A stretch of DNA of 62,222 bases, the filler included, from Chrysochromulina tobinii (Eukaryota), in assembly GCA_001275005.1 (NCBI GenBank). It is 8 parts of 8 records of this genome, joined end to end, with 100 filler letters (N's around TTAATTAATTAA, not from the genome) between each part and the next. Parts side by side here need not be neighbours in the genome. Positions count along the whole stretch, not along the records: positions 43,774 to 54,173 come from JWZX01001157.1; 7 more parts are not named here. One strand, given 5' to 3'. Every line of letters starts with the position of its first letter. The stretch's first letter is position 1. A program made the position numbers and the translations under genes. Below are positions 28,340-55,035 of the stretch, piece after piece. The notes beneath the pieces were generated by a model. It was not told the DNA's origin, did no database searches, and saw only the letters and a program-made list of their open reading frames with translations.

Positions 28340-28422
28340 CCCTAACCCTAACCCTAACCCTAACCCTAACCCTAACCCTAACCCGAACCCTAACCCTAAC
28401 CCTAACCCTAACCCTAACCCTA

Positions 28423-28454
<32 letters not shown>

Positions 28455-28456
28455 CC
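28340..28456. repeat. Telomeric repeat (CCCTAA)n grading into CCCTCA
   Basis: About 14 CCCTAA units (one CCCGAA) then 5 CCCTCA at the contig start, C-rich strand oriented as expected at a chromosome end. Confidence 0.95.
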
Positions 28457-33201: not shown

Positions 33202-33555
33202 CGCTGACGGCGCCGCTGCTCTCGCCGATACCACCGACGCCGTTCTCCCTGTCGTCCTCGTTTCTGCCGACACTTGTCACGGCGTTATTGCTGTCTATTT
33301 TGCTGCTGTCTATCTTGCTGCTGCCGTCTATTTTGCTGCGGCCGTCTATTTTGCTGCGGTCTATCCTGCTGTTGCTGTCTATTTTGCTGCTGTTTTCTCC
33401 ACCACCACACGTATCGCCGCTCCTTCTACCACACGTCGTTCCCTTCGCTGCCGTGGAGCTGGCGACACGAGCGGTGTACGCGATGAGGTGCCCTCTCCGC
33501 GTTTCTACCGCGTTTCTCTCCCTTTCCTCGCCACGCCTGCGCCGAGGTTGATCGA

Positions 33556-36500
33556 TTGGCACTGTCTGCTCTTCAACGCAATTATCCCGGCCTTGCCCCG
33601 TCTCGCCTTCGACGGATTTGGAGTCGCCTTGCTGGGAATGCGCAATTCCGCGGGTATCAGGTTGGATGGGCTGTCGTTCGAGGACACGGGAGCGACCCGC
33701 TGATCGCCGTCGCCAAACTTCTCGTGTCTTCCCGGGAAGTGTGGGTAGATGAACTCGCTGCTACACGAGATGGCTCGGCTGCGGCGCGCTGGGCTCTCTT
33801 GTCGGCACTCGAATCCGCGCTCGAGCTGCGCCTCACCGCTCCCGAGGCTGTTGTCCGCCTGCGTGTGGCTCTCGCACCCTCTCGAGACTCGCGAGGTGCG
33901 CACGGCATGTACCGTAACCAACTGCACCTCCGCGACGGCGTACCAGAGCTCCCCGGGCCGTGGCAGCACGATTGTACTGAACCTGGATACGTTCTCATGC
34001 ATGGACTGGTTGGCGAGCTCGTTGCTCGCCTCTGCGTGGTACTATCTTCGAGACCTAATGCTCCGGGGACGCAATTCTACTGGCGCACGTCGTGCTCGAT
34101 TCCCGCTGCTTTCTCGCTTGCCTTTGCGTCCACAGCTTCTCTTCTTGCTCCTATCGGTACCGCTGCTTCGCCCGATGGGGCTGCTGCTTCATGCACGCCT
34201 CCTGATGCCGCGCCGTGCGACGCTCTCGACCGGAGTGTGCTTGTACCTCTTTCATCCGTCACTCCATCCGCACCTGCTGGTTCTTCTCGTCCACCATTCG
34301 ATGTTGATCCTGCTGCTGGTCTCCTCACTCCACCGCCCCGAGGGCGCTCTGGCACGGCATGGGAAGATGAGGGCGCGCTCCTTCACGCCATTGTCGCTGC
34401 AAGCTGCGAACCTTCTTCCGCGTGCCACGCACCGCCCACTGATGACGACCCAACCGACGTACGTCCGCCGCCGCCTCCTCTCTCACCGTCCCTTCCACGT
34501 CTTCGCTTCGACACCCTGCCTTCCTCCCACCCGTCGACTCCCACCGTCGATCCTGCGCCCTCCACGTCCACCGGTACTCAGGCGCTGGTCGCGCCCCTGC
34601 TGCCCTCTGCGCCGGTGCTGCCTCCTCGCGGCGAGTCTCTCCTTGTATGGAACGCGGCCGGGTGGTGGTGCGGAGACAGCGAGTCGGGCTCCGACGAGCA
34701 CCAGGCTATCGTTGCCTCTCGATATGACGTGCTTAACCCTTTGCTTCGCGGACGCGACGCGCCGACGTACATCGTGCTCAACGAGATCAGCGGATCCATG
34801 CGAGATTCGGCTCATCCGCGTGGTCTTGGTGCGTGGCTTCGTGCGGCCGGGTATGGCCACTTCTTTTATCCGGGGGGGTCGACTACGCGACAGCGCAGCG
34901 ATGGGTCCACAGGGGCCACTGGCGGCGTCCTCCTCGCGTGGATGCGCAGCGAGACGAGCGCGTGCGGCTCGCCCCACTTTGATCCTAAGTCCATGACGAT
35001 CGCTCTCGACTTTCGCCATCGGAGCTGTGCGCGAGACGCTCCACCTATGCGACTGCTCGCCGTCTACGGGGCGCATCGGCGGAACGGACGGGAGCAGGCG
35101 CTTCGAGCCATCACTCGGCACGTTACGCAGACTCGGGGGTGCCTGGTCGCGGGCGATCTCAACGTTGTTCCTAGTTCTACGTGGAAATGCCGCGCTCGGC
35201 GAATGACCGTCGCCGACGAGGAATTTGCTGCCCTTACGGACGGCGGCGCACTTCTGGATGCCGGTACATCGATGGTCCATATTGTTGATCTTGGTCTCGA
35301 TCACGATCGTGGACAGTTTTCTCGGGCGCACTGGACGGCGACTCTTGCTGATGGGTCGCCACAGGGCACGGCGACACTCGATCATGTTCTCACCGCGGGC
35401 TTGGAGCGTGGTCGGTGGCAGCGCCGTGCGGCATGGTATGCCTTTGGTGACGATGGCAAGCTCCTATCGGATCACATGGTCATTGTCGTGGACCGTGCCT
35501 CTCGCTCGGTTACCTCTGACGACCGCGGCGTGCATCGGCCGCCGCGCTTTCTGGTGAGCCGATGGTCCGGGCGCCAGCGAGCTGCCTTCATCGCCTCTTT
35601 TGAGCGCAATCTACAACAGCTGCGTGCTGGCGCGTGGCGCGCCTGCCCGGGGGAGGCTCGACAATCTCTCGCCGAGGGTGCTACGGCTATCACTCAACTG
35701 GTGTCTCTTCTGAATGTCGCCGCCCTCGCCGCGGAGGGCTCCGTGCGGAGCGATCCTCGAGGCGATCGGCTTCGTCGTGTGCATGACGGTGGAGGCGGCC
35801 TTCAAGGGGTTAAGGCGCAGCTCCAACGCCAGCAAGGCATTCTACGGCGTGTTAGAGTTGCCCGTCTCGCCGTCGAGCATGCTGCTGCATCGCTCGCGGC
35901 CTTGCGACACGATGTGCTCGCTCATCTCCGTCTTCGCGCGGAACTTCAACTACAGAGCGCCTTGGCCACCGAGCGGGCGCTTTATACACCCACCTCGGCC
36001 ACGTACCTTGCTCGCCACGACCGTAGCCTCCATCGTGCTCTGCTCAGGCCGTATCTTGGACCGCCCGATCAAGCTGCTGCCGTGCGCTCGTCTGCGGCCG
36101 CCTCTCGGCTTCTTCGCGACATTACCTACTACAGCCATCAACTTCGAAAGCTTGAGCGACGGGCCGATCGCCCGATCTGGCAGGGGATTGCCGATGCGAT
36201 GGCGGGTGGCGGGCGCGACGCCATCGTTGCTGCGATGAGGCGGCCGACGCAGCGCGATGGTTCCCACGGCGGCATTATGGGCTTGTACCGCAATGACCAG
36301 CCGATGGTCAACCGCAACGGCGCTCAAGTTCCAGGCGAATGGATTAGCGAACCCTCGGCGGTACGGGCGGAAGCGGGCGCCATCTACCGACACATCGATG
36401 ATGCCAACTTTGGTGCTGGTACCGTGGACGCTCGCGTGATTGGGTTTCACAACGCCCTGTGTCAGCCCCCGTGGCCCGAGCTTCCCGGCCACGACGGTTC

Positions 36501-39500
36501 AGAGTGGCGCCTTCCACACGAGTGCGATTTTGCTGCCTTTTGTGCACTGCTTTGGCGCATGCACTCGAACAAGGCTACCTCTCTTGACCGCGTCTCCAAG
36601 GAGATGCTCGAACTCCTCCCCGACGCGCTGCGTCGTCCCTTCTACGTTGCGGCCATGGCTGTGGCCACTCCCGACGCGCGCGGTGCCCGCTCCAAGCCCG
36701 CGTACTGGACGCGCGTGCCGGTCAAGCTCCTCGATAAGAAGGTCCCGTCGCCGTGCATCTCCAAGAAGCGCGACATCGGTCTCCCTTCGCAGTTGCTGAA
36801 GATTCAAGCGGGTCTCTACCTGCCCGCGTACGCGGCAATCATGGGACGGCTGCCTGGCAACTTTGGCTGGACGCCCGGAGTGGCTGCGCGTGGCGCCGCC
36901 TTGTGTGGCGGCCTCGTGCTCGATCACACACATCTCCTGTCGCACTTTCTCCTCGCCATTTACGCGGATATCCAGCGCTTCTTCCCGTCTATGGACCGTG
37001 GCTACGTCCTTATTGCTGAACAGTGGCGCGGGCTCCCGCGCGATGTGCGCGAGGCGACCCTTGCACTCTACCACGACTCCTGCTTCCTCTACGAGACGGA
37101 GCATGGGCTCGCCGAGGGTGCTGCGCGACCTGCTCGCGACTCGGGTGGCGTCGAGTTCGACTTCACGACCGTTCAGTCGCGGTGCGGCTACTTCCAGGGG
37201 TGCCTCCTCTCTACCGAAAAGGCCAAGATTTTTATGGCCAGCCTCAGCGAGGCGATCGACACGCTGGTCGGCGGCGGCGGGGTTCGTTTGTGGAACGGCA
37301 CTTTCCACGGGGGACGGCGGTACCCGAGCATTCTTTGCGCCGACGACCTGCTCGGTAGCTTGACGAGCTGGGTGGCTGGCATCGTCTTCATTCGCCTTCT
37401 GGACGAGTGGGCCGACGTCTCGGCTAGCCACTTTGGCATCGCCGACGACGCGTCCAAGACGACGTTCTCTGCCATCTTTGTCGATGGCTCCGGCGTGCCG
37501 CACGAAGCCCCGGCGCCGCCTGCGTTCCTCGCCGCCGCGCGCATTGGTGGCCGCGCCATCCCGCGCCTCCCGTACGACGCCGAGTACGCACACGTCGGCG
37601 ATCGACGCAAGCTCAACGGCGATCAGAGCCCCACCCGGGGCAAAGCGGTCGGCCTCTGCATGGCGTGGCTCAAGCGCGTTGAGCAGATGTGTAGGTGCAG
37701 CCCGCGCGAGTTTGCTCATGCTACATACGTTGGCCTTGCCTCTGTCATCGACGCGTACGCTCCGTTGGCGCCGCTGACTTTCGCGCAAGCCGAGGCGATC
37801 GAAAAGGTTAAGCGTGCTATTTATAAGCGACGCTTCCGCGGGCTGGTCTCTGCAGCCTGCGCCGACCGGTATCTACCTGATGCTCTGCGCGCGGCCCCAC
37901 AGTACGGTCTCCTCACGGCAGGCCTTCCCGAGGCCTCGCGTGTTGGCGATGGGTGGTTTCACTGCGCTTCTCTCAACGCCGCCAGCATCCACGCTGCTTT
38001 TACCGACGCCATCTCCGATGGCATCGACAGCCAGCTCCGATTCTGTGCCCGGGCGCTTCTTTCCCTTACGTGCTTTCTCTGGGGCAGCTTTGGTGCCCAT
38101 CCGGCCACTTGGTCTTGGGTACACCTCGAACATCTCCTTGCGAACCCGGATCCATCCGTCGGCTCCTCCTCGGTGGGCCGTGTCTTCGCCACCGAGGTCT
38201 ACATGAAAAACGTGGCTTTGCTTCGCCGACTCGCCGCATTGTCCAACGGCGATCTAGCGCCCTCGTTCAACTTCACCTTCGAGCACGTACCGCCCGCCGG
38301 GGATCCCTTTGATCGGACCGCCCTCATCTACTCTTCCAAGCTGGCGCATGATACCTTACGCTTGTTTGAGGGCGACCTCATCTCGGAGACCACGTGCGTG
38401 CAACTTGGGCGACGGCGTCGACCGGTGTGGCTTCTCCTCTCTGCAGGCATTGTCGTCCGGTCGCATGTATGTCGTGCAGACGGCTCCGACTTTATGACCT
38501 TTGCTGAAGCGGCGCTGGTCGTACCCGCGTTTGCGCGACGTGCGGGTTCTGCACTCCTCGCCTCGCAACGCGCGTGGGATCAACTGATCACCGACCTTCG
38601 CGATCTCGACGTCGAGACGGTCCCGGGGGAGGCCGTCCTCGATGCACAGACGATCTGGCGGGGCACGGCGTTCAACATGGCCGGGGCGCCTGACGGCTCC
38701 GCCGGCACTGGGCCCCGCGCCGAGCTCGATGATCTCATACAGCGCATGGCGAACGGCGACGTCGCCGCCGCGAGCGAGTGGACAGCTGCTTATCGCACCT
38801 GGTCCGCGGCACCACCCCCCCCGCGATGCGAACGGCCGCTGCCGTCACCCACCGCGGAGGAACTCTGCGGTCCTCACACCCGATTTCTCGTCCCTGCGCG
38901 CGGAGGGGAAATCGAGACCATTGTCCGAGGACGGCCCGCCCCGACCTGCTCCGCGGTTGATGCGGCTGTGCTTGCGCGGTTCCAGTCGCAATCGTGGCGC
39001 GTCGCCCGCGACGGCCGCTCGCTTGCCTGCTCCCACGGCACCGAGCTCCGGCAGGCGTCCGTCATCGTCCAACTCTACGCGGCCGCGCTCCCCATCGCCA
39101 TCGCTGCGTTCGACCGCGAGCAAGCCGCCAAGGCTCATCGTCGTCTCAAAGTCAACGAGAAGCGCAACCTTGCTGGACTCGACCCGCTGCCGCCCGATGA
39201 GCCTACTCCCGAGGAGAGGTCCTGGCAAGGGGGACCGGGCTTCTGCGTTGCGCTCGCCAATGCAACCCTCGACGAGATGCTCGCCGACGAGCAGAGCCAA
39301 GGGTTCGCCTACACGGCTGCGGTTGTCGGCGATGGGTCGTGGGATCCTCGGCGGAAGCGCCTCTCGCGCGCCGCGCTGATGCATACCGGCGCATGCCTCG
39401 GCGGCGCTCTCGCTGCCGACGACTTGATTGGAGGCACTCGCGACAACTACGATGCCGAGCTTGCGCATCGCGTCGATGCGCTCGCACGGCTCGAGGGACA

Positions 39501-41784
39501 GCGCGTCTTCTATATCTTTGACTCCACCTCTCCCATTCTCGCAGGAGAGCACTTTCGCCGCCTGAGTCTCCCAGCTCGATCGCGCATGCTCTGCGACGAT
39601 TGGCTCGCCTGGGCCATGTCGTTTGAGCAGCGCCTAGAGACGCTCACCTATTGGTGGTCGCACTCTCACTGCGGCCATTTGCCCGAAGCTGCCGTCGACG
39701 CGCTCGCCAAATCGTTTCTCGCAGGCGATCCGATGCCCCTCCCTCGCCCTCTCGAACCCCCTCGCCATCGGTCCATTCGGCACTATGCCAAGGGCTCGGA
39801 GCGCGACCTCATGCTGCACGTGTACAACCTACACGTCGTGCGGACGCACTACACCGCGCCCTCTTCGATGTTCGCACGTCCAGGGTGCCTCGAGCTTCTG
39901 CGGGTTGCCAAGCTCAACGATCAGCAGCGCTCCACCGTGTTGGCAGTTCGAGATGATCGAGTACGGCTCTTGGGCAGCCGAATCTTTCGGGACACGGGCC
40001 CGCATTCCCTCGGGGCGGTGCTTACTAAGCTGGGCTGCCCGTGCGGCAAGGGGCGACAGACTGTCGAGCATGTTCTCTGGGAGTGCGAGCTGTCCAGCGT
40101 CGTCGCGCGGCGCGCGACGCTCCTCACTCCCGCCTGCACCGTCCTTGGTACCGCACTTGATCGCTGCGAACCCATCACACGCGATCACGCTGTCTCCTCG
40201 ATTGTGCGCCGCGCTCTTGAACGCGGGCAACGCCCGGAGGCGTATCGCACGCTCACGGGTGCTGGGACGCCCCTGAGCATTTCGCGAGACGAGGCTCGGC
40301 AGGCTGCTCTCGCGCACGTACTCGGCATCGTTCAAGAGCCTCTGAACTGGTTTCGCCCGACCAGTCAGCTTGCCCGCCCTCTCCTCCATGCCTCTCTTGC
40401 AATGATTGCTGCCGCGATCCAGGCCTCCACGACCACACTCCGGCATGCCATCCTCACCAGCCGGCGCCGAATGACCCTCTCCTGCGCCCTCCAGCGGCTT
40501 CGGTATCAGACTTGGACCCACCCTAAGCCCGCAGGCACGCCGTGCAGGTGTTGTGCAATCCCCGGCTCGCCCGCGCCGGGCGTTCATGTCCTCGGGTCGC
40601 GTCGTCCGATCGATGGTGCTCGCGCTCTTCAAGCTGTTCAACAGCGGGAGGGCGTCCGCGCTCAGGGTCCTCCCCAGCTCTCGAGCATTCGCTCTCTCGT
40701 CACCCGTGCTCGTGAGGAAGCATTTCTCTCGAGCAGCGCTGCTCTCGAGGTCTCTTTTCGACTACAGCAGGATTGCCTCGCACGGGACGACGACGCATCC
40801 GCCACGTTTGCACGTGTCAATGACGCTCGAGCGCTTGCCGACGACGCTCGGACGCGTGCTGACGACGCTCGGGTGCTTGCTGATGCGCTCGACGGGATCG
40901 ACGAACTTTCTTCTACGCAGGCATGTGCAGACGCGGAGCGTGCATGCGCAGACGCGGAGCGTGCAAGTGTAGACGCGGCGCGTGCACTCGCTGCGCATCG
41001 CGCGGCCGTCATCGCAGCCGCCAATGCTGCTCGACTCTCGAACGCGGCGGACGCCCGCTATCGTGACCTCGACTCGCACGCTCATCGGGTCTCGGACTTT
41101 GCGTATTTCGCCGCCCAACATGTCTCTGGTATCATCCTCGACAGCCAACGTGCTGCGGTTCGATCACATCGGGCTCAGAAGGCGGCCGCGGCGGCGCGGG
41201 CGGCGGCGACGCCGCGCCTCACCCCTGCGGAACGCCGGGTGCTCACGGTCCAGCGTAAGCGTCGGCGGCGAGAGGAGCAGGAGGCGGACTCGACCGTCCA
41301 GTTTCTCCTCGCTAAACGACGCCTCGATGCGTGCCCGGCAGCCGCTGACATGGTCACTCGGGCTCGCGCTGCTGCGCGCAGGTGTCGCGCGAACGTCTTG
41401 AGTCTCGACGATCGACTGCGGGCGACCCGCCGATCGGCGATTGTGGCCAGCTACTTGGCTTTGCGACGCGAGGTGGTGGGCGCTAATCATGCGGTTCAGG
41501 AGATCGTTCTGCGTATGCGCACGGCTGCGCGCGACATGCGCAGAGGGGTGCTTGCTCGGAGACTACACGGGCCTCCCCCTCGGATAGGGTACGAGCGGCG
41601 AGTGTGGATCCGGCTCGCGGGGCTTACGCCGCCGCGGCGCTCGCGCGTGCGTGCTGCGGCAGCTGTGGCCGCCGCGAACAGCGGTCCTATTGGTACCTCT
41701 ACTATACATTCGGGGGAAGGGGGGCACCGGTCTGGAGCAGATGCTAGTCCGGCGCTCTCCCTTCCCCCACGACTTGCCGATTAA
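33556..41784 (+). CDS. LINE polyprotein: possible GNAT, APE endonuclease, reverse transcriptase, RNase H, zinc knuckle, helical/basic tail
   Basis: APE motifs LVWNAAG, VLNEI, LAVYG, VAGDLN, TLDHVL, SDH (34639-35478). RT motifs KKRDIGL, ADIQRFFPSMDR, GYFQGCLLS, LCADDL. RNase H motifs VGDGSW, DAEL, IFDSTS, SHSHCG...VDALAK. Knuckle CPCG...EHVLWEC. The listed start is TTG, so the true start is uncertain. Confidence 0.93.
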   Translation: MALSALQRNYPGLAPSRLRRIWSRLAGNAQFRGYQVGWAVVRGHGSDPLIAVAKLLVSSREVWVDELAATRDGSAAARWALLSALESALELRLTAPEAVVRLRVALAPSRDSRGAHGMYRNQLHLRDGVPELPGPWQHDCTEPGYVLMHGLVGELVARLCVVLSSRPNAPGTQFYWRTSCSIPAAFSLAFASTASLLAPIGTAASPDGAAASCTPPDAAPCDALDRSVLVPLSSVTPSAPAGSSRPPFDVDPAAGLLTPPPRGRSGTAWEDEGALLHAIVAASCEPSSACHAPPTDDDPTDVRPPPPPLSPSLPRLRFDTLPSSHPSTPTVDPAPSTSTGTQALVAPLLPSAPVLPPRGESLLVWNAAGWWCGDSESGSDEHQAIVASRYDVLNPLLRGRDAPTYIVLNEISGSMRDSAHPRGLGAWLRAAGYGHFFYPGGSTTRQRSDGSTGATGGVLLAWMRSETSACGSPHFDPKSMTIALDFRHRSCARDAPPMRLLAVYGAHRRNGREQALRAITRHVTQTRGCLVAGDLNVVPSSTWKCRARRMTVADEEFAALTDGGALLDAGTSMVHIVDLGLDHDRGQFSRAHWTATLADGSPQGTATLDHVLTAGLERGRWQRRAAWYAFGDDGKLLSDHMVIVVDRASRSVTSDDRGVHRPPRFLVSRWSGRQRAAFIASFERNLQQLRAGAWRACPGEARQSLAEGATAITQLVSLLNVAALAAEGSVRSDPRGDRLRRVHDGGGGLQGVKAQLQRQQGILRRVRVARLAVEHAAASLAALRHDVLAHLRLRAELQLQSALATERALYTPTSATYLARHDRSLHRALLRPYLGPPDQAAAVRSSAAASRLLRDITYYSHQLRKLERRADRPIWQGIADAMAGGGRDAIVAAMRRPTQRDGSHGGIMGLYRNDQPMVNRNGAQVPGEWISEPSAVRAEAGAIYRHIDDANFGAGTVDARVIGFHNALCQPPWPELPGHDGSEWRLPHECDFAAFCALLWRMHSNKATSLDRVSKEMLELLPDALRRPFYVAAMAVATPDARGARSKPAYWTRVPVKLLDKKVPSPCISKKRDIGLPSQLLKIQAGLYLPAYAAIMGRLPGNFGWTPGVAARGAALCGGLVLDHTHLLSHFLLAIYADIQRFFPSMDRGYVLIAEQWRGLPRDVREATLALYHDSCFLYETEHGLAEGAARPARDSGGVEFDFTTVQSRCGYFQGCLLSTEKAKIFMASLSEAIDTLVGGGGVRLWNGTFHGGRRYPSILCADDLLGSLTSWVAGIVFIRLLDEWADVSASHFGIADDASKTTFSAIFVDGSGVPHEAPAPPAFLAAARIGGRAIPRLPYDAEYAHVGDRRKLNGDQSPTRGKAVGLCMAWLKRVEQMCRCSPREFAHATYVGLASVIDAYAPLAPLTFAQAEAIEKVKRAIYKRRFRGLVSAACADRYLPDALRAAPQYGLLTAGLPEASRVGDGWFHCASLNAASIHAAFTDAISDGIDSQLRFCARALLSLTCFLWGSFGAHPATWSWVHLEHLLANPDPSVGSSSVGRVFATEVYMKNVALLRRLAALSNGDLAPSFNFTFEHVPPAGDPFDRTALIYSSKLAHDTLRLFEGDLISETTCVQLGRRRRPVWLLLSAGIVVRSHVCRADGSDFMTFAEAALVVPAFARRAGSALLASQRAWDQLITDLRDLDVETVPGEAVLDAQTIWRGTAFNMAGAPDGSAGTGPRAELDDLIQRMANGDVAAASEWTAAYRTWSAAPPPPRCERPLPSPTAEELCGPHTRFLVPARGGEIETIVRGRPAPTCSAVDAAVLARFQSQSWRVARDGRSLACSHGTELRQASVIVQLYAAALPIAIAAFDREQAAKAHRRLKVNEKRNLAGLDPLPPDEPTPEERSWQGGPGFCVALANATLDEMLADEQSQGFAYTAAVVGDGSWDPRRKRLSRAALMHTGACLGGALAADDLIGGTRDNYDAELAHRVDALARLEGQRVFYIFDSTSPILAGEHFRRLSLPARSRMLCDDWLAWAMSFEQRLETLTYWWSHSHCGHLPEAAVDALAKSFLAGDPMPLPRPLEPPRHRSIRHYAKGSERDLMLHVYNLHVVRTHYTAPSSMFARPGCLELLRVAKLNDQQRSTVLAVRDDRVRLLGSRIFRDTGPHSLGAVLTKLGCPCGKGRQTVEHVLWECELSSVVARRATLLTPACTVLGTALDRCEPITRDHAVSSIVRRALERGQRPEAYRTLTGAGTPLSISRDEARQAALAHVLGIVQEPLNWFRPTSQLARPLLHASLAMIAAAIQASTTTLRHAILTSRRRMTLSCALQRLRYQTWTHPKPAGTPCRCCAIPGSPAPGVHVLGSRRPIDGARALQAVQQREGVRAQGPPQLSSIRSLVTRAREEAFLSSSAALEVSFRLQQDCLARDDDASATFARVNDARALADDARTRADDARVLADALDGIDELSSTQACADAERACADAERASVDAARALAAHRAAVIAAANAARLSNAADARYRDLDSHAHRVSDFAYFAAQHVSGIILDSQRAAVRSHRAQKAAAAARAAATPRLTPAERRVLTVQRKRRRREEQEADSTVQFLLAKRRLDACPAAADMVTRARAAARRCRANVLSLDDRLRATRRSAIVASYLALRREVVGANHAVQEIVLRMRTAARDMRRGVLARRLHGPPPRIGYERRVWIRLAGLTPPRRSRVRAAAAVAAANSGPIGTSTIHSGEGGHRSGADASPALSLPPRLAD

Positions 41785-43773: not shown

Positions 43774-43776
43774 CCA

Positions 43777-43813
<37 letters not shown>

Positions 43814-44476
43814 GGCCGCCGCGGCCGCCGCCGATTCCGAGAAAGGCACGCAGCTTCGGAAAGATGCGCGCCAGTTTGGTCGCGAAGCGAAGGGTCTCGC
43901 CAGCTGGCAGCTGCTCGACGTCAGCATCGTCTTTGAAACCTGGTGGGTCCTCATTGCCAAGGCGACGAAACAGCTTCGTGAGCCACTCGACGTACTCGTC
44001 TGGATCCGTACTGACGGTCCAAACGTCGGCCAATTCAAAAACGGAGTCCAAGAAGAGGCGCTCGTTCAGGCTCTTATTGCCTTTCCTGTCTTCTTCCCAG
44101 GCCTGCTCTGCCTGTTGCTTGCATACCTCTGCGTCGGCAACTTCACCTTCTTCTGTAAGCGCGAGCCCAATCTTTGTGAAGACCATCACATACCTATTGC
44201 GGTCGACACTCGCCTTCTTGCCGCCACTGGTTACTGCTTGCCACCAAACGTCGAGGATGGCGAGCACATCGGGATGGCTCCGGTTCCTTGCGCGTGCCTT
44301 GAGGTTGTCTGCTGTGTACATGGCTTCATCACCTTGTTGCCACCACATCAGGTTCGCTAAATCCTCTGCCTTGGCTACTTTTGTGACCACCAGCGGTGGC
44401 ACCTCCACACCGGGCCTCCAGCCACGGGCCGCCGGCGAGAGTGGAGAGGACGGCGATGGAGGAGCTGCCTGCATCT
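43774..44476 (-). CDS. Conserved hypothetical protein with an EF-hand-like segment, 3'-truncated
   Basis: WEEDRKGNKSLNERLFLDSVFELADVWT...EYVEWLTKLF resembles an uncharacterised protist domain. Confidence 0.55.
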
Positions 44477-45048
44477 TGCCAGGTGTCCGCTCCGAGCCGC
44501 GAACGCTGTGAGCACCCTGCGTCCACCCACTCCTCACAACTTTTCGTGACGCGGTTGATGCGGGCGGGCGGGTCGGGAGAGGGGAGTGAAGTGCTCACAC
44601 CGCGCTACGCGCGCCCCCGTGGGCGTTCACACAACACATCGTCAGCACTAACGTGCTCTCCTCACCTAGAGGGATCGGCATCCTCGCGCAGTCCCCCACG
44701 GCGCGACCAGAGGGGAAGGAGGGCGACGCACGCGTCGGACCCCCCCACACACACAAGCCACCGACAGGGTACGAACGCGGCACGGCTCCAAAGCCGGCAG
44801 TCTCAGTCCTCCTCGCACTCAGTACTCTCTCAGCAGCCGCTCCGGTTGAGGGCGGGCGGGTGGGCAACCAATGGGCGGCTGCTGCGCACCCCCCTTCGGA
44901 CCCGCGGGGCCCCGACCACCCGACGGGCGGGCGCTGACCGCGCCCTCCCCCCGGCCGGTCCCCCCGCTCAGACGCGCGGCACTCGCGACGGTCTGACCCC
45001 GAATCGACAGCTGGAGCTGGCGCCGCCGCGGCGATTCCACACCTAACT

Positions 45049-45987
45049 ATGCATGCATGCGCGAGACCCGTTCTGCGCCTGCCACCCCCGGGGGGAAGAC
45101 TCACGCCCCCCCTTCAGGGCCCCCGCATCCGCGCTGAGACGAGCGCGACCTCCGCCGAGCGACGGCGGACGCGCCCCGGAATGCGTGCGATTGCGCTCTC
45201 TACCTTGCGACCTCGAGGCAGTCCGCTCCAAATGAGCAGCCTCACCGGCGGCCAGGCGGCGGGTGCCCTGGCATCATCGGCAGTGATCCTCGAGGCAGTG
45301 CAGGTTGCAGGCACGGCCGCAGCCCTGGCCGTTGCACAGCATCAGCTCGGAACGAGCAATCCTTTCGAGACCGTTGGGTCTCTAGTTGCCCTTTTGCAAG
45401 ATCTGGGACTCGCCGGCTACGCTGTCTTCTCGGCCATCGCGGTCTTCTTCCAAATCTTTCCGATTGTGAGCGCATATCTTGTGATGCTAACCGCCGGTGC
45501 CATCTTCGGAGCTGCCAAGGGCACCGCGACCGTGCTCATGTGCTCGACCATCGGCGCGACGCTCTGTTTCCTGATTGCACGCACGTTTGCTCGCGACGTC
45601 GTCATCGAGTCTGCGAAGGAGTCGACACAGTTCTTGGCTCTTGACAAGGCCTTAGGTGAAGCCACCTTTTCCAAATCAGTTACGCTCATCACACTTCTGC
45701 GCCTGTCGCCGGTGATCCCTTTCGTATGGGGCAGTTACGTCTTTGGTCTCCTGCCCATATCGATCTTCACCTTTGCCGCCGGTACCTTTGTCGGCTGCCT
45801 GCCGTATGCCGTCGCTGCGAGCATCTCTTCTGAGCAACTGGGGGTTGAGGCGGCTGTCCACGGCGAGGCCCTGAACCCATACCTGCTGGGCCTCGGAGTG
45901 GCTGCCACCATCGGAGCGCTCGGCGTCGCGGGCAACTTGGCGACCGATGCCCTCCGCGAGGCGGGCCTTGATGTCTCGACTGACTGA
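45049..45987 (+). CDS. VTT/DedA-family (TVP38/TMEM64, SNARE-associated) membrane protein
   Basis: LTAGAIFG...STIGATLCFLIARTFAR, LLRLSPVIPF and FAAGTFVGCLP. The start could be a downstream ATG (45181). Confidence 0.9.
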   Translation: MHACARPVLRLPPPGGRLTPPLQGPRIRAETSATSAERRRTRPGMRAIALSTLRPRGSPLQMSSLTGGQAAGALASSAVILEAVQVAGTAAALAVAQHQLGTSNPFETVGSLVALLQDLGLAGYAVFSAIAVFFQIFPIVSAYLVMLTAGAIFGAAKGTATVLMCSTIGATLCFLIARTFARDVVIESAKESTQFLALDKALGEATFSKSVTLITLLRLSPVIPFVWGSYVFGLLPISIFTFAAGTFVGCLPYAVAASISSEQLGVEAAVHGEALNPYLLGLGVAATIGALGVAGNLATDALREAGLDVSTD

Positions 45988-46501
45988 GTACATTAAAGCC
46001 GTTGAGTGCTTTCAGACACGACGCATGAATATCGAGCCCGGATTCCCGCGGATCATGCATATAAGGCAAGACGTTGACGAGCCATGACACGCATGAGAGT
46101 ACCGAGTACTGCCTTACGTATAACGGCAGTAACCACTTATTCAAGCCGCAAGCTAAACACGATATTGCGTACATAGTTGTCGTCCTTCTTACCCGTTAAG
46201 CTGACGTGATGTGAAACGGTGAAAGTCCGAGAGGCCACGGCAAAGCGCCGTTAATTATATCGCATATCCGATATCGCGGTTATGCGAGTTAACGTAAAAC
46301 TAAAAGTCCGTAACAATAATAAACGTATAGCCGCTAACAATAAACGTATAATTCGTAACACGGGGGCCACGAGCGGGTAGAGGCAAGAGCTCTAGGACAT
46401 TCGACGTGAAAGCTTGGGCGTTTGGGAGCTCGTCAGCTCGCACCGGGGCTATTCCCCATTCCTATCCCGTCACTCTCAAGCTGCAGACGGAATGACGGAT
46501 G

Positions 46502-49500
46502 TCATCCAAGGTGCAGGACAGAGCGTAGGGCGTTCTCCTCGAAGAGGCGCGTGCGGCGCGGAACCGCCCCGGCAGAGAGCGCCTGCTGCTGCCTCGGGCT
46601 CAGCAGGTCCGATCCCGAGCGTGGGTCCGAGCCCGACCGTGGCGTGGCGTGAGCGTGCCCGATCCGCGGCGTGATGATCAGCAGTGGGCTGGGCGCCACG
46701 GCGCTCACGGACGAGGGTCGACTCGAGAGGCTTCGCGCCAGCGAGGAGAGGCCGTGGCCTGATGAGGGACGCAATCAAGGGGCATTAGGAGGCAATCACG
46801 AGGAGCCATCAAGGGTCTCGCGCCAGCGAGGAGAGGCCGTGGCCTGCACCTGTAGTGAGCGAGCGAGTGCTGCAGCGAGAGCTCGTCGGCGTCTCCCCGT
46901 GCTGTGCGCGCGCCGCACCCTCCGGAGTGAGCAGCTCCAGGCCCAACTGATGCTCGCCACAGCGCGCAGCCCGGCGCTCAGCCTGGAGATGCTCGCCACC
47001 CCCGAGTGCCGGGCTGCGCGCTGTGGGGTCTCGTGGCTGTCTCGACATGGCTTGGTATCCCTGGAGGACCTCTCTTGCAGCCGTGAGCTCGGCCGAAGCC
47101 GCCACGTCGACGGACGGTGCGGTGGCCCATGCGGCGAAGGCAAACGATGCGGCGGCGGAGCCTGTCTGGCCGCCAGTCTCCGCGCCGACGCTGCCGCTGC
47201 AAGCGCCGAGCTGCAACTGGCTGAGCTGGAGCTGTTCCCAGGTTGAGCAGCTCAGCCGTGGCGTCGAGCCCACTGCTGGCGTCGAGCCCACGCCAGCAGT
47301 ACAGCCCACTCCAGCAGTACAGCCCGCGCAAGCCTCGGCCGCCACGGTGCTCGTGCCAACGGGGAGAGCGCCGGCGTGCCCCCCCTGCACGCGCCCGGCT
47401 CCTTCGACAAGCGCTCGAGACGACGCGCCTTCGACGAGCGCTCGAGACGACGCGCCTTCGATGAGCGCTCGAGCGCGCAGGTCGACGATCGCGGACTGCT
47501 TCGCTTGCTCCAGCAACTCCGTCTCCTGCCGGCGCTTCACCTCTCGCCCTGCCTCCTCCCACGCGGCGTGTGCGGACGTTTGCCAACGGGCGAGCTCCGC
47601 AACGGTCGCCGAGAGCTGCAGCACACGTTCCTGGTCTCCTCGTTCCGCAAGCTGCGCCATGCGCGCCACCGCCTCCTCGGCCACCGCTGCGGCCGTCTCC
47701 GCCTCCACCTTGTCAGCGCGCTCTGCCTCGAGAGCCAAGGCAGCCTCCGCGAGGGTCTCGCGCACCTGATGAGGAACGCAATCAAGGGTCATTAGGAGGC
47801 AATCACGAGGAGCCATCAAGGGTCTCGCGCACCTCCGCCACGTATTGATCGCGCTCGGCTGCCTCGGCCATGCTCGCCCTACGGAACTGCACGGCGTGCC
47901 CGCGCGCCGCCTCGAAGTCGCCCTCCGCATGCCGCAGCTCGAGATGCATCTGCGTCACCATGACCGCCGCGCGCGCCTCGGACGCTCGGCAGCGTGCCTC
48001 GGACGTTGCGAGCTGCTCGCGCAGTGCAGCCAGCCCGCTTGCCTGCTCGCTCAGCCGCCCTTCGAGCTCGGCACAGCGCGCGCCCGCCCGGGCCGACTCT
48101 TCAAGTGCCGTACTCGCCTGATGAGGGACGCAATCAAGGGTCATTAGGAGGCAATCACGAGGAGCCATCAAGGGTCTCGCGCACCTCCGCCGCGCGTGCT
48201 TGCGCGTCCCGACGGCTGAGCTGCCAGTTCGCCTCCGCGCCCGCGCTGGTGGAGCGCGCCGTCTCGAGCGCCTCCTCGAGCGCGTGGCGTGCTACGCGCC
48301 ACGACGCCTCCGCCTCGGCGCGCGCCGCCGCCGCTCGTTCTCGCTCGAGCGCCTCGCCGTCGGCGCGTCTGGCGTGCGCGGCAGCCTCCGCGGCCGCCGC
48401 GTGCGCGCGCTTCTCCGCCTCCGCCGCGCGCTTCTCCGCGAGGGTGAGCTTGAGTCGTATAGCGCCCAACTGCTTCTCCGCCGCGTTCAGCTCGTGCGCC
48501 ATCACGTAGACGCTCAGATGGGTCTCGTTCTGAGCTCCGACGAGCTCCGCCGAGATGGCGCGGCAGGCTTCGTCAGCCGCCGCAGCGGCGCCCTCACTCT
48601 CGCGCAGCTCGAGCTCGAGCGTCGTCTCGAGCACGTGCGCCTGTGCCGCGTGCAGGTTCCTTGTGGCCTCGAGCCGCGTGAGATGGCAGGACGACAAGCT
48701 CTGCTGCACGGCGCTCAGGCGCGAGGCGAACTCGCTCGCCTGCGCATCGGCCGCCGCCTCAATCGCCGCAATCGAGGGCGACGCCACCGGCAGCGGCAGG
48801 GTCGGCGGCGGCGGCGTCGGCGGCGCCTCGTATCGCCACACGTGTTGTGGGTGCAGAGGCTGGCTGCTCTGGGGTGTGGAGGGCGCTTGGGGGCTCAACT
48901 TCTCCAGAAGCCACGTAATGGCCTCCGGCAAGGTGGGGCTCGACTCCGCATGCAGGTGCTCACTACGGCGCGCGTTCGACTCCGCATGCAGGTGCTCACT
49001 ACGGCGCGCGTTCGACTCCGGCGGCGCGCCGCTGCCTCGCCAGCGATCGCCTGCGCCGTAGTGAGCACCCGCACGCGCGTCGCCCTGGATCCTCGCCAGC
49101 TCAGCGCTCACGCCGCTCAGCCGCTCCTCGAGCTCGCGCACGAGATTGGCCGTGCCCTCCTCAACGCGCCTCATGCGCTCCTCGTGCTCAGCCAGCCCGG
49201 CAGCTTCGCGCGCCGCGCATGCACGGGCGGACGCGGCGATGGCGGCGGCGGCCTCGTGCTTCAGCCGTTGGCGCATCTCTTCACCCTCCGCCGTCCCTTT
49301 GCGCACCAGAGCCTCACGCTCGGCGAGCAGTGCAGCCTCCCGCTCGGCGAGCTGCCTCTCGGCCTCGCCCGCCGCACGCGTAGCCGCCTCCGCCGTCTCT
49401 CTGAGGGCGCCCAACTCGGCGTCCGTACGCATCAGATCCACGAGCAGCACGCGCGCCTGCGCCTTGGCCGCCGCCGCCTCGTGCGCCCTCTGCGCCTGCA

Positions 49501-52500
49501 ACTGCTGGTGCAGCTCGGCCGCCGTCTTGGCCATATCTTGCTCACGACGGCGCGCCTCGGCCATCAGCTCGTTGAACCGTCTCTGCTCGTTGGAGACATG
49601 GTGCGCGGTGCGCAGCTCGATGACCCCACGCTCCATCGCCTGCGCCTCGAGTGCCTCGCGGGCCTCCACCTCGCGTTCCGCCGCCTCATGTGCACGTTGC
49701 TCGGCCTCAGACGCGCGCCGCTCCGCTTCCACAGCGCGCGCCTCGGCCGCCGCCTCGACCGCCATGGCCGCCTGCTGCATCGACGCGGCGGCCGCCTCGG
49801 CTTGCTCCGCTCGGCTGAGCGCCGCCGCTGCGCGCGTGCTGGCTTCACTCACCTGCCGCGCGGCCTCTCGAGTGGCGGAATGGGCTCTGTCGCTCAACTG
49901 CTGCGCTTCGCGCGACGCATGAGCCGCTTCGGCCTCCAACCTCGCTGTCGCGTCGCTCAGCGCGGATTGGGCCTGGCGCACCTCCTCGTGCGCCTTGTGC
50001 ACTGCCGCGTCGCGCGCCGCCGTTGCCGCGGTCGCCTTCGCCTCCGCGCGGAACGCGTCGTCACGGGCGCTCTGGCACAAGGCAATCGCCCTCGAGTGCG
50101 CCGCCTCGGCGGCTGTGGTGGCCTCGCACTGCTGCCCGAGCGCGCGCAGAGTCGTGTGGAACCCTTGCTCGACCGCCGCAAGCTCCGCGCTGAGCAAGAG
50201 CTCGTGCGCCGCCGCTTGGGCCTCGTGCAGCCGCTGCGCACGCGCCGCCCCCTCGGCCGCCGCCGCCGCCGCCTCCCAAGCTTCCGCCGAGGCATGCACG
50301 GACAGGCGCCGAGAGGACGTCACCGACTCGAGCGCCGCGTGCGTGCGCTTCGTCTCGTCGCCTGATGAGGGAGGCCATCAGAGGCCATCAGAGGTCATCA
50401 GAGGCCATCAGAGGTCCGCAGAGGTCATCAGAGGAGGTCATCAGAGGAAATCAGAGGCCATCAGAGGAGGCCATCAGAGGAGGTCATCAGAGAAGGTCAT
50501 CAGAGGAGGTCATCAGAGGCCATCAGAGGCCATCAGAGGCCATCAGAGGCCATCAGAGGCCATCAGAAGTCATCAGAGGAGGTCATCAGAGGAGGCCATC
50601 AGAGCTCGGTGCGCAGTTTCGTCACCTAGCTTGCGCTCAGCGGCAGTGACCAGTCGATCGGCGTCCCGGAGCGCCGCGCCGAGCGTCGCGCCCACCACGG
50701 CGCGTTCGGCTTGCTCTGCGAGCGAGCTTCGCATCCGTTCAACACCCGCGCGCGCGGCCTCGGCTCGTGCGCACTGCAGCGCCGCCGCCGTCCCGGCCGC
50801 CTCGGCCTCGGCGCTGGCGAGCGCAGTGCGCCACGTGGCACGCTCCGCACACGCTTCCGTCCGCCAGGCGGCGCGCTCCGCCGCCGCCTCGGATTTCTCC
50901 AAGTCCGCGCCGTCCAACAAGTGCTGGACGGCCGCGAGCGCGCCGTCGAGCTCCTGCTTCGCCTCGAGGATCCCGCTCGCAGCCGCCTCGTGAGCTGCCC
51001 TCGACTCTGCCCTCGACTCGCGGGCGGCTGTGCCGGACTTGCGCCGAGGAGGAGGCGAGGAGGAGGAGGCACGCCGGCGAGAGGGCGGCGGCAGCGGAAA
51101 GGCCGAAGAGGAGGAGGAGGCACGCCGGCGAGTCGGCGGCGACAGCGACCCAATGTCGAGGCGTGCCTGCTGCAAGTGCCCTTCGATGATTTCATTTGCA
51201 GTCGTGAACAGAGTCTTGTTGACATTGTCATCCAACACCCCGGCCGCGGCGGCCGCCCGTCGCGCCTTGGAAAGCGGGCTGAGCCCTATTCGGAGCTCCT
51301 CCTTGGCCGCGGCCGCGCGCCGCTCCGCCTTCGCCGCTCGCGCCTCGGCCGTCTTGGCCGCCTGCCGCGCGGCCGAGAGAGGGCTCAGTGCGCGCTCCGT
51401 CTCCTCCTCCGCCTCCAAGACGGCCACGCGAAGCATCGAGCGCTCTGTCTGGTGCAGCCGTTGCTTCTCATCGAACGCCTCGAGGAGCTTGCGATGCTTC
51501 TCATCGAACGCCTCGAACAGCTGCCGCTTCTCACCGTCCCAGGCTGCCGCCGCCTCCGCCGTCGCCTCAGCGAGGGCCGCCTTCTCGGCTGCGGCCGCCT
51601 CCATGCGCTCCGAGAGGCACTTGAGCTCGCTCTGAGCTCGAACTGCGCCTCGATAGGCGGCGGCCAGCTCAGCCTTGAGAGCCTCGATCGTCTCGACTGC
51701 TGCTGCTGCGAGCGCATCGGCATCGGAGACAGCCTCGCGGAGCAGCGCACGCTCGATCTCGAGCTCGGCGGCGCTCCCTGCCCACTGTTGTACCTGCTCA
51801 GCAAGCGTCGTCGCCTGCTCCTCGGCCAGCTCCGCTCGGCGCTGCCACGTGGCCAGCCGCACCTGTGGGGAGGGGGGCGAATCGTGAGCACTTGCATGCA
51901 GCGCGCCCTCGAGGCCACGTGGCCAGCCGCACCTCGAGAGCGCCTATCCCGTTCCTCATCTGCAGCCGGGTCGCGAGGACGCTCTGCTCGGCCACTTGCT
52001 GCTGGCGCTGCACGTCCGCCATTGCGTCCTCGAGCACCACCACCGTCGCCTCCACCTCCGCCAGCGCGTCGCTGAGCGCGCGGCCCGCTGCCGCCGCTTG
52101 CTCCCCCTCCAGCTTCAGCTGCGTCGTCTGCGCGGCCGCGTGCTCGAGTGTCGTCCTGTGCTGCACCTCCAGAGCCCCCAGCTCCTCCATGTACGCTCGG
52201 CTGGCGACGCTCAGCGCGCTCTCGGCCCGCTCAGCGCGCGCAGCGGCCGCGTTGGCGGCCTTTTCGAGCTGCATAAGGGTCGTCTTGTGTGCCTCGGCCC
52301 TCGCGGCTGCTTCCGAGCGCATACTCTCCACCTCATCCGCCACGGCCATGTGCTCGCGCATGCTCGCCTCTCGTGCGGCCGTCACGAGCGCACGGCGCTC
52401 GTCCTGGAGGCGCTGCTCGGCCTTCGCCACGGCGGCCTCGCGTTCCTCGAGGAGTGTCGTGAGCTCCTCGACTGCGAGCTCGCCCGTCTCGGCGCGCTGA

Positions 52501-53810
52501 CGCCATCCGTCCGCTCGGACGCTCAGAGAGCGGTGCGCGTCGGCCGTGTCCGCCAGCAGCGCCTCGAGCGCCTCGAGCACCTGCGCGGAGCGCCCGCACC
52601 CCTCCTCGAGCCGTAGCTCCGACAGCACACAGCACGTCGTCGCTTCCGCACACGCAGCCTCGCGGTAGATGCCAGCGAGGCGCTCGGCGCCGCGCCTCTC
52701 TGCGGCCTCGAGTTTCGTCTCTGCGGCCTCGAGTTTCGTCGCCGAGATTCGTCGCTCCGCGCGCCCCTTGACGTGCATGGCCAGCAGGCTCACGGCAAGG
52801 CGGCGCTGGCGCGCCTGGAGTCCGTCGAGGGCGGTCCGCAGCATGCTCGCCTGATGAGGGACGCAATCAAGGGTCATTAGGAGGCAATCACGAGGAGCCA
52901 TCAGGGCGGTCCGCAGCATGCTCGCCTCGTCTTCTGCATCCGCGAGAGGGCCACACAGTGCGCGTGCGACCACGTCGCTGTGGACCTCCACCGCCGCTTC
53001 CCTCGCCGCCGCCGCATCCGCCTGCACGGCAGCTAGGTGCTCAAGCACATGGCTCGGCCACACGTCACGCGCGGGCATCATCGGCATCGGGCTGGACGCA
53101 ACCACAGAAGGGGCCATCGCGGTCGGGCCCGGCGGCACACGCCGCGGCGACGCACGCTGCGGCGGTGGTGCGTGCGCTGCCTTGCTCGCGGTGGCCGGCG
53201 TGGGCTGCGTGATGCCACGCGCCTCGTGCTGCGTGATGCCACGCGGCTCGTGCTGCCACGCCTCATGCGGCTCGTGCTGCCAAGTCGCTGCACCCGCGGC
53301 TGCCAGCGGCGCTGCCGCAGCAAGGAACTCGCGGCGGCGCTCGTGCACGTCGAGGGCATGTGCGACTTCCTGCAGCTGCTCCATCTCTGAGAGAGGCGGC
53401 GGGCTCGGAGAATCTGCTTCGTGCTGCTCTAGCTGCGCAGCGTCCTCGGCCTGGCGGCGACGGCGGAGCGCATTCAGCTCGTGCTCGGCACGTAACAAAG
53501 AGGCATGCTGCCGCCTCTCCTCCTCTTCACTGCGGAGCTGGGCGAGCTCCGCCTCGCGCTGAGCGCGCTGCTGACGTAATTGCTCCTCCTGCTCTTGTTG
53601 TTTCGACGAGAGCTCGCGCACGGCGGCGCGCATCTGATCGAGCTCAGCGTTGGCGAGTGTGAGCGCCCTGGACGACCTCCACTCCGCGAGCTCCTTGTCT
53701 CTCAGAGACTCCTTGAGCTGCTGCCGCTCACGGACCGCCGCAAAGTAAACGGCGTCGCGACGCTCCCAGCGGGCCGAGGCGAGCGCATCATCGAAGCGGT
53801 TGGACGCCAT
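46502..53810 (-). CDS. Large Ala/Glu/Arg-rich coiled-coil protein (~2,226 aa, six introns)
   Basis: Removing introns 52851-52925, 51863-51932, 50362-50625, 48118-48184, 47766-47832 and 46759-46843 leaves 6681 nt (2227 codons) and links the listed ORFs in frame. Confidence 0.8.
46759..46843 (-). mobile_element. Family-A intron (GC-AG), 28-nt duplication
   Basis: Core tgatggctcctcgtgattgcctcctaatg.cccttgattgcgtccctcatcag; flanking repeat aggccacggcctctcctcgctggcgcga. Confidence 0.88.
47766..47832 (-). mobile_element. Family-A intron (GT-AG), 16-nt duplication
   Basis: Same core; aggtgcgcgagaccct at both junctions. Confidence 0.88.
48118..48184 (-). mobile_element. Family-A intron (GT-AG), near-identical to 47766-47832 but lacking its own duplication
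   Basis: Begins gtgcgcgagaccct, which matches the exon after the 47766 intron rather than its own downstream exon (gcgagtacgg). Confidence 0.88.
50362..50625 (-). mobile_element. 264-nt intron of ctctgatg(g/a)c repeats ending cctcatcag
   Basis: Splicing joins ERKLG to DETKRTHAA in frame; degenerate junction duplication. Confidence 0.8.
51863..51932 (-). mobile_element. Family-B intron, 21-nt duplication
   Basis: aggtgcggctggccacgtggc flanks ...gcatgcaagtgctcac...ccccacag. Confidence 0.85.
52851..52925 (-). mobile_element. Family-A intron (GC-AG), 25-nt duplication, in frame and stopless
   Basis: aggcgagcatgctgcggaccgccct is duplicated; reads through as ASMLRTALMAPRDCLLMTLDCVPHQ. Confidence 0.88.
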
Positions 53811-53989
53811 GATGGGTTGAAGATGAAGATGAAGACCCGTCGTGTGTGACAGTAGTTAGGTTGTAACATAACTTTGACGGTGAACTGTTTTCCCACTGCA
53901 CCCATTACATGGACTCCTTTGCGCTGCGTATGTGTAATATTTCATTACGGTACCAGAAGTCCCGACGTCGGCGTTGGTGTCGCGCAGAC

Positions 53990-54075
53990 CGCATGTTCTC
54001 GGCATGTCCTAGCATGTCCTAGCAAGCATGTCCCAGCATGTTCTCGCATGTCCTCGCATGTCCTAGCATGTCCTC
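53990..54075. repeat. 10-bp tandem repeat gcatgtcct(a/c)
   Basis: About eight copies upstream of the coiled-coil gene. Confidence 0.85.
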
Positions 54076-55035
54076 AAAGAACCCCGGCACCTCGGCCACC
54101 GTTTGGAGTGATTCTGAAGCGGTCTGTGGGGGGGGGGGGGGTTGTGTTGTATGCGTGGCCTCTACTCGGCGGCNNNNNNNNNNNNNNNNNNNNNNNNNNN
54201 NNNNNNNNNNNNNNNNNTTAATTAATTAANNNNNNNNNNNNNNNNNNNNNNNNNNNNNNNNNNNNNNNNNNNNAAAAGTTTTGACAGGGGGTTTATGACA
54301 GGTGACACTTAGCTCTTGTGCACCGCCTTCGAAGTCGAGAGCCGTGCGTGAGGATCATCCAACTCCGGATCATCGATGAGATCCATGCACACCGGCCTTG
54401 ATAGAACTCGAGGTGTGTCAGGAGGTCGCTGAATCACGCGAGCAGAAAGGAAGGTAACATGGACGGGTCCGGTAAGAAGACATATTGAAGCCAAGCATCC
54501 ACAGGCAACGAACGAAGAAAATCGCGATAACGACATGCCTGTGACACGCACTGAGACTCACTGGTGCTGCCTTGTTCTTGCAGTTGAAGTAGTTTGCTAT
54601 GTACAGCAACCACATGTAGCACTTCACGTTCAAGATGAAGTTCGGAATCGTCGAGTAGAGATCTCAGAGTGCCACATCGATTGGCAAGAAGAATATCACG
54701 GAACGCCAGTGACAGTGGAATGCAACTGATGACCTCCATGTACTCAGAGGGAATGATGACGTCACGCAAAAAGCAAAACAAAAAGATATGCCAAGCACTG
54801 CACTGCTGATCATATTCCAGAACCCAGCCTTGAACTGCCGTGACTTGCGACAGGAATTCGCATTCGGCGCGAGAGGACGGGCTGCACAATGACGACAAAG
54901 ATGTCGCGTCGGATGCAGATCGGACGCGAACCAGCGATCCGTGGGACACGAGGGCACCCCCGACCAAAGGCCAAGAAGTCCCCCCGGCGGACATGGATTT
55001 CGCGCGAAGTGGTCTCAACAAAAAGACAACGAGGT

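What the first reader, a model, noticed from the sequence alone, without database searches (positions are those of the whole stretch)
46759..48184. Introns carry a neighbour's duplication scar, suggesting local intron-to-intron copying
Seen: gtgcgcgagaccct is native exon only after intron 47766-47832, yet intron 48118-48184 starts with it and both are preceded by gcggag. Intron 46759-46843 switches from its own duplication into gaccct-core at the shared hexamer gcgcga. Inference: the 47766 intron templated the other two through 6-nt microhomology, giving both direction and mechanism.
Basis: partly seen in the sequence, partly recalled or inferred. Interest (0 to 1): 0.8.

Follow-up and report, generated by a model that had tools for sequence, protein, structure and literature searches.

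The report
Introns copied and overwritten by neighbours
One algal gene holds four near-identical short introns; relatives lack two of them, which were likely copied from neighbours in the same gene, while a third was likely overwritten later by its neighbour, leaving a rare readable record of where new introns come from.

Summary
Minus-strand introns C (46759-46843), A (47766-47832) and B (48118-48184) share a 53-nt core; a fourth copy, D (52851-52925), was missed. All lie in one 2226-codon coiled-coil gene. The 14-mer is native exon only after A (an outgroup reads VRGTL there), and the one other gene found with this core lacks it, so the stated refutation is not met.

Relatives change the mechanism. 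A sister lineage has A, lacks C and D, and has B with its own duplication (15 of 15). So C and D are young local copies, while A's scar in B is likely a later overwrite. C's junction is polymorphic (10 A-type, 13 own-exon alleles), so the hexamer switch may also be secondary.

Best reading: each intron is born as a duplication of its downstream exon plus a neighbour's 3' core, then ectopic conversion reshuffles 5' ends. A DNA template is favoured; a LINE-like ORF in the window keeps RNA templating open. Intron E appears to carry another gene's scar, so copying is local-biased, not local-only. No whole genome was available. The scan noted the duplication footprint before on another piece of this genome (e1-2577349).

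The parts
46502..53810 (-). Host gene: coiled-coil protein of 2226 codons after removal of six introns; no Pfam family in the four exon frames scanned
   Evidence: in-frame indels among alleles; homologues
46759..46843 (-). Intron C (85 nt, GC-AG; alternative GT donor at 46849): own 26-nt exon duplication plus shared core; absent in the sister lineage
46812..46823 (-). C junction, A-type here (GCGCGAGACCCT); own-exon type (GCGCGAAGCCT) in other alleles
46733..46758 (-). Exon copy of C's duplication
47752..47765 (-). Native exon 14-mer (codons VRETL), source of the scar
47766..47832 (-). Intron A (67 nt, GT-AG): own 14-nt duplication plus core; present in both lineages; skipped in an RNA-library contig
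48118..48184 (-). Intron B (67 nt, GT-AG): starts with A's 14-mer (48171-48184), no own duplication here; has its own duplication in the sister lineage
48185..48191 (-). Upstream exon end shared with A (GGCGGAG), likely end point of the A-to-B tract
52851..52925 (-).
50362..50625 (-). Intron E (264 nt): repeat core; first 23 nt match an exon start and an intron start in another gene (20 of 23)
51863..51932 (-). Intron F (70 nt): own 19-nt duplication plus a different core type

Best explanation
[quoted passage not shown] Inferred birth step: a nascent or broken DNA end at an AG|G site primes on a nearby intron's acceptor (2-7 nt of homology), copies about 50 nt of core, and rejoins its own locus 14-31 nt downstream at a short match (CCT in A, D and own-exon C). 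The duplicated exon piece supplies the GT/GC donor and the copied core supplies the acceptor, so the protein is unchanged. Inferred second step: ectopic gene conversion between the near-identical introns moves A's duplication into B (fixed in this lineage) and swaps C's junction (polymorphic). Shown: the anatomy, the presence/absence pattern, B's two states and C's two states. Inferred: the enzymology, DNA as template, and the order of C's two states.
For: Four cores differ at 0-2 of 53 positions, and the window's two private substitutions are absent from other alleles. The 25-nt core hit 9 contigs: 5 this gene, 4 one other gene. Sister lineage: A present (14 of 15 listed ORFs start inside it), C absent (15 of 15), B with own duplication (15 of 15); window lineage: B A-type in 11 of the 11 that reach the site. 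D absent in 19 of 19 hits; contig breaks in two culture DNA runs fit a D-less second copy. C junction 10 A-type, 13 own-exon. Only 2 of 72 CCT sites in the coding sequence follow GCGCGA within 4 nt, A and C, which points to an A-type donor for C. D and B share 5 nt of downstream exon (4 of 191 sites), which fits a template that includes the donor's exon. Nearest neighbour lies in the same gene or contig for 14 of 25 catalogued introns, null 6.0, p=0.002. A second near-identical pair lies 630 nt apart on another contig.
Against: Sister-lineage B is known only as peptide, so independent gain at the same site is not excluded. The sister set could be a paralogue. P0020 may come from spliced RNA, so it shows native exon sequence but not intron absence. 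Without A-D the nearest-neighbour excess is 10 of 21 against 5.8, p=0.06. The short homologies occur at 1-10% of sites by chance. Intron E and the second gene with the core imply copying between genes. A LINE-like ORF in the window offers an RNA route with the same footprint. No genome was held, so the core's true copy number is unknown.
Confidence: 0.55

Rival explanations
1. Same history, but births are RNA-templated: a LINE-like endonuclease and reverse transcriptase nick the target, prime on an excised intron or the gene's own pre-mRNA at the acceptor, and stop early at microhomology, giving a variable target-site duplication and a 5'-truncated copy near the transcription site.
For: Variable 16-34 nt duplications (AG included), a fixed 3' end and a truncated 5' end at microhomology match target-primed reverse transcription (recalled). 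ORF 33487-41781 has an APE-type domain (PF03372, E 3.6e-7), feature similarity 0.93 to RVT_1/RNase H clusters and fitting motifs. All four copies are sense and inside one gene. An R-loop route to local insertion is proposed for Micromonas (PMC4540971, passages).
Against: No tail at the 3' end. No RVT_1 match by HMM or PDB search. Sense orientation is required for splicing anyway. D-B homology runs into the donor's exon, which an excised intron lacks. It does not explain B's overwrite or C's polymorphism without added recombination.
Confidence: 0.25
2. One reading: B and C were each born directly from A through 6-7 nt microhomology; the sister lineage gained a different intron at B's site independently, and own-exon C alleles are later conversions from C's own exon.
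For: B is a clean full-length copy of A with 7 nt upstream homology. The two most divergent DNA alleles (window and L007) share the A-type C junction, and L005, L009 and L012 share derived changes near C's donor. Parallel gains are reported in Daphnia (cited in PMC4540971, passage).
Against: Needs two gains at one of 192 AG|G sites. Sister B shares 12 of its last 13 codons with A. The own-exon C junction ends at CCT like A and D. All four combinations of junction and a marker about 60 nt away occur (10, 9, 3, 1), which fits repeated exchange, though assembly mixing can mimic this.
Confidence: 0.13
3. A dispersed introner (transposon) whose consensus includes the 14-mer and which prefers similar target sites.
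For: The wider repeat-core family is abundant: 78-83 contigs per DNA run share E's 3' end (table 7). The core has a 5-7 nt inverted match at its ends. Introners are reported from Chrysochromulina.
Against: 0 of 5 matches in the other gene carry the 14-mer; none in the other 7 window contigs. Duplication length varies. The core was found in two genes only. Folding is no better than shuffles (z -0.56 to +1.20).
Confidence: 0.05
4. Assembly artefact: A's start was pasted onto B and C by repeat collapse.
For: A and B share 74 nt and lie 352 nt apart.
Against: Same B junction in L003, L009, L012 and 11 predicted proteins. Single contigs of two DNA runs cross the B and C junctions with no differing letters (table 8, records 3, 4, 11, 12).
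Confidence: 0.02

Closest known systems
Same-gene near-identical introns: Oikopleura pairs (as cited in PMC3879977, passage) and fungal same-gene duplications (PMC3609843, passages)
   Same: Near-identical introns at non-homologous positions of one gene, in low copy number.
   Different: Those were read as whole-intron reverse splicing or segmental duplication, and the passages seen give no donor. Here only the 3' part is copied, the donor site comes from a target duplication, order of birth is resolved, and later conversion is visible.
Introners that carry the 3' splice site and recruit the 5' site from the target duplication (Symbiodinium; Polarella classes 4, 5, 6, 8, 10; bioRxiv 10.1101/2020.10.14.339549 part 1 of 4; 10.1101/2022.06.06.494994 passages)
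   Same: Acceptor carried by the insert, donor taken from the duplication, protein unchanged.
   Different: They have fixed 4- or 8-nt duplications and are dispersed in many copies. Here duplications are 14-31 nt and variable, and this core is confined to two genes. The Chrysochromulina example has a 4-nt duplication and the opposite polarity.
Intron gain by double-strand-break repair (Daphnia, 5-12 nt repeats; cited in PMC4540971; PMC3443670 passages) and templated insertion by alt-EJ/SD-MMEJ (PMC7407515 passages)
   Same: Direct repeats flanking a new intron; microhomology at the joins.
   Different: The Daphnia donor was unclear; here the donor is an identifiable neighbouring intron.
Tandem genomic duplication of AGGT exons and intron transfer between paralogues (PMC3443670 passages)
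   Same: Duplicated AG|G supplies a splice site; recombination moves intron sequence.
   Different: The intron body is foreign to the exon, and exchange is between non-homologous positions of one gene.

Membership tests
Introner (transposon-derived intron family) | Many near-identical copies in unrelated genes | tested here: inconclusive
   This core: two genes only. Wider repeat family abundant. No whole genome.
Introner (transposon-derived intron family) | Fixed element ends and fixed-length target duplication | tested here: not met
   3' end fixed, 5' end variable; duplications of 14, 19, 23 and 26-31 nt.
TIR/MITE introner | Terminal inverted repeats | tested here: inconclusive
   7-nt inverted arms in D only; none of 6 nt or more at the core ends of A or C; folding not above shuffles.
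Same-gene duplicated introns by reverse splicing | Near-identical introns in one gene without flanking exon duplication between sites | tested here: met
   Four cores, 0-2 differences; downstream exons share 1-5 nt.
Same-gene duplicated introns by reverse splicing | Whole intron inserted cleanly, no target duplication | tested here: not met
   A, C, D and sister B have own duplications; only window B looks clean, and it is likely converted.
Repair/template-switch intron gain | Direct repeats flanking a recent insertion with microhomology at the joins | tested here: met
Repair/template-switch intron gain | DNA template and dependence on repair or replication enzymes | not testable with these tools
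   Needs genome-wide orientation and distance data, or experiments.
Non-LTR (target-primed) retro-insertion | Variable target duplication, 5' truncation, fixed 3' end | tested here: met
   hallmark list recalled
Non-LTR (target-primed) retro-insertion | 3' tail shared with an autonomous partner | tested here: inconclusive
   No tail at the intron ends; 220 nt after the LINE-like ORF were only read by eye and showed no core.
Ectopic (non-allelic) gene conversion | A pre-existing locus takes on the donor's sequence while the donor is unchanged | tested here: inconclusive
   B differs between lineages while A is kept; C polymorphic. Sister DNA and phasing not available.

The most novel reading that the evidence does not exclude
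This lineage makes introns as a chain reaction with no master element: any intron of the repeat-core family can template a new one, nearby more often than far, and each copy or overwrite leaves another site's exon sequence at its 5' end. Those scars would let one draw donor-to-recipient genealogies for hundreds of introns and measure how intron copying falls off with distance, possibly driven in trans by a LINE-like enzyme.
Probability: 0.35. Interest if true: 0.85.

Novelty: new variant of a known kind. Interest (0 to 1): 0.62.

Why it matters
The source sequence of a newly gained intron is usually unknown; reviews read here list many gains without a mechanism and about 72% of introner families unclassified (PMC12130899, passage). 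Here donor, order of birth and later remodelling can be read from one gene and its alleles. It also warns that near-identical introns and clean insertions can be products of later conversion, which would mislead dating of introner bursts and claims of reverse splicing. Seven literature searches showed no listing that describes scar-traced donors or conversion between introns of one gene. Subscription papers and the family lists in bioRxiv supplements were not visible, so this family may already be catalogued there.

Tried and rejected
No whole genome was held, and the loci's records were not searchable as genomes, so the genome-wide nearest-neighbour test was replaced by a 27-intron catalogue from the window and L011 (2 tandem members dropped). 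Three viral-contig scans and one prokaryote-genome scan for family motifs found nothing. Depth per bin could not give a copy number for the core, because low-complexity matches inflate bins without introns. A close-up read-laying on intron B gave no result, so B's splicing and the core's copy number in the culture stay open. A first automatic duplication finder was swamped by core repeats and its output was cut. RNA folding gave no signal. The Atlas search on P0020 gave only generic coiled-coil neighbours and no taxon. Midpoint rooting of five DNA alleles, done by eye, leaned to the A-type C junction as ancestral but was rejected as unreliable because several sites conflict. A symmetric AGG/CCT double-nick model was considered: it fits A, D and own-exon C, but several L011 introns do not end at CT (by eye), and microhomology to the core explains the same letters. 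The Oikopleura paper was not held and is cited second-hand. Equal contig lengths suggest P0037 and P0061 (4867 nt) are one sister-lineage contig, but P0017 and P0056 also share a length (6858 nt) across lineages, so this link was not relied on.

Full report
Setting. The window is eight contigs joined by spacers; the finding lies on 43774-54173. The organism is a GC-rich eukaryote, likely a haptophyte alga; that label comes from an earlier scan note and from recall, and I did not test it. No whole genome was held.

Observation. All stated features are present on the minus strand. A (47766-47832) begins with a 14-nt copy of its downstream exon. B (48118-48184) begins with the same 14 nt although its own exon differs, and shares 7 nt of upstream exon with A. 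C (46759-46843) begins with 26 nt of its own exon and switches at GCGCGA. A fourth copy, D (52851-52925), has its own 23-nt duplication. The 53-nt cores differ at 0-2 positions. Removing these and introns E and F gives one frame of 2226 codons; keeping A, B or C ends it early, while D is in frame. One RNA-library contig skips A and one skips D; these are contigs, not raw reads, and B and C were not seen skipped.

Chance. The 14-mer has a per-site chance of 1.2e-8. The microhomologies are modest: 8 of 191 AG|G sites share 7 nt or more with A's upstream exon, 20 of 191 have GCGCGA within 40 nt, 2 of 72 CCT sites follow GCGCGA closely (A and C), and 4 of 191 begin GCGAG (B and D among them).

A scan of metagenome contigs for 25 nt of core gave 16 stretches on 9 contigs: 5 are this gene, 4 are one other gene. 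In that gene 0 of 5 matches carry the scar. The scar is absent from the other seven window contigs. It is therefore not family consensus on this evidence, with the limit that fragmented assemblies may hide copies.

Order of events. Prokaryote-style gene calls on contigs read into introns, which reveals intron states. The distant homologue P0020 (67% over the first 100 residues after A) reads VAEVRGTL, so the 14-mer is native exon. A sister lineage (83-98% by exon) has A: 14 of 15 listed members start inside it, and all 15 read straight through C's site (29 members read, 15 listed). D is missing from 19 of 19 hits, both close alleles and sister, and present in the window and L008-L010. In two culture DNA runs a contig ends at 52852 and the next has five unplaced letters beyond 52903, which fits a D-less copy at about twice the depth (my inference from 31-mer geometry). 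So A is old, C younger and D youngest, and the only matching donors found for C and D are in the same gene.

What changes the story. In the sister lineage B is present, but as a 69-nt in-frame insert that begins with its own exon (ASTALA) and shares only 12 of the last 13 codons with A; 15 of 15 listed members agree. In the window's lineage 11 of 11 proteins that reach the site have the A-type start; one more ends before it. The simplest reading is one gain with its own duplication, later overwritten by A. Independent gain at the same site remains possible because only peptide is available. C is polymorphic: window, L003 and L007 have the A-type junction, L005, L009 and L012 continue their own exon to CCT; among proteins the split is 10 to 13, with some overlap with those loci. 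Either state must have been templated from the other source, so exchange at this junction is shown, but its direction is not.

Is copying local in general? In 25 of 27 catalogued introns, the nearest neighbour by the last 50 nt lay in the same gene or contig 14 times against 6.0 expected (p=0.002); without A-D it was 10 of 21 against 5.8 (p=0.06). L011 entered this set because it matched the core and may be another strain. A separate pair 630 nt apart shares 52 nt with 2 mismatches. Against strict locality, E's first 23 nt match another gene's intron and exon starts at 20 of 23, and A's core has a relative in a second gene.

Mechanism. Birth leaves a variable duplication that begins at AG|G, then a copy anchored at the donor's acceptor and cut short at a small match. 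DNA template switching explains this, the local bias and the homology into the donor's exon at D, and the same recombination explains B and C; I put this at 0.55. Target-primed reverse transcription gives the same footprint (recalled), and the window holds a LINE-like ORF on another contig, although no RT model matched it; 0.25. Selection for an intact frame filters all routes, so sense orientation and AG|G sites do not discriminate.

Comparison with known work. Same-gene near-identical introns are known from Oikopleura (second-hand) and fungi. Donor recruitment from a target duplication is known in dinoflagellate introners with fixed 4- or 8-nt duplications. Repeat-flanked gains are known in Daphnia with unclear donors (second-hand). 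I read passages of 10.1101/2022.06.06.494994, PMC12130899, PMC3443670, PMC3609843, PMC3879977, PMC4540971, PMC7407515 and PMC7789003, part 1 of 4 of 10.1101/2020.10.14.339549, and listings only for the rest. Seven searches showed no listing of scar-traced donors or intron-to-intron conversion within a gene; supplements were not seen. An earlier scan note reported the duplication footprint elsewhere in this genome and read it as a mobile family; my data agree on the footprint and add the donor and the later overwriting.

Verdict. Real, and a new variant of known local intron copying.

Noticed in passing
window 33487-41781 (+): Intronless 2765-codon frame with an APE-type endonuclease domain, feature similarity to RVT_1/RNase H clusters and a C-terminal Cys/His motif: likely a large LINE-like retroelement missed by the Pfam RT model.
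   Followed up: partly
window 50603-50625 (-) and L011 5536, 5329 (-): Intron E's first 23 nt match another coiled-coil gene's intron start and exon start at 20 of 23, the only other hits of 17 or more in 184,076 positions: a likely between-gene scar. L011 may be another strain.
   Followed up: partly
L002 5960-6075; L011 3079-3230: The only other gene with the core has the core's 11-mer CTCCTCGTGAT in its own exon, so A's core may itself carry an older scar. The intron is tripled in tandem in L001.
   Followed up: partly
window 22180-22265 and 22810-22895 (+); 21035-21112 and 21940-22011 (+): Two more pairs of similar introns on one contig, with a different core type and own duplications.
   Followed up: partly
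window 51767-53810: About twice the depth of the rest of the gene in two culture DNA runs, with contig breaks that fit a second copy lacking intron D.
   Followed up: partly
window 46842 and 46845: In L005, L009 and L012 two substitutions destroy C's GC donor, implying use of the GT donor 6 nt upstream.
   Followed up: partly
P0007 and P0044 (intron A region): Alleles in which intron A reads through in frame, and one with a tandem extra unit of A.
   Followed up: no
window 44468-45160: High-copy repeat (about 40 times local depth) upstream of a VTT-domain gene.
   Followed up: no
window 28340-28460: CCCTAA telomere-like array at a contig start.
   Followed up: no
whole window: Eight contigs joined by N-spacer-N blocks; distances across spacers are meaningless.
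   Followed up: yes
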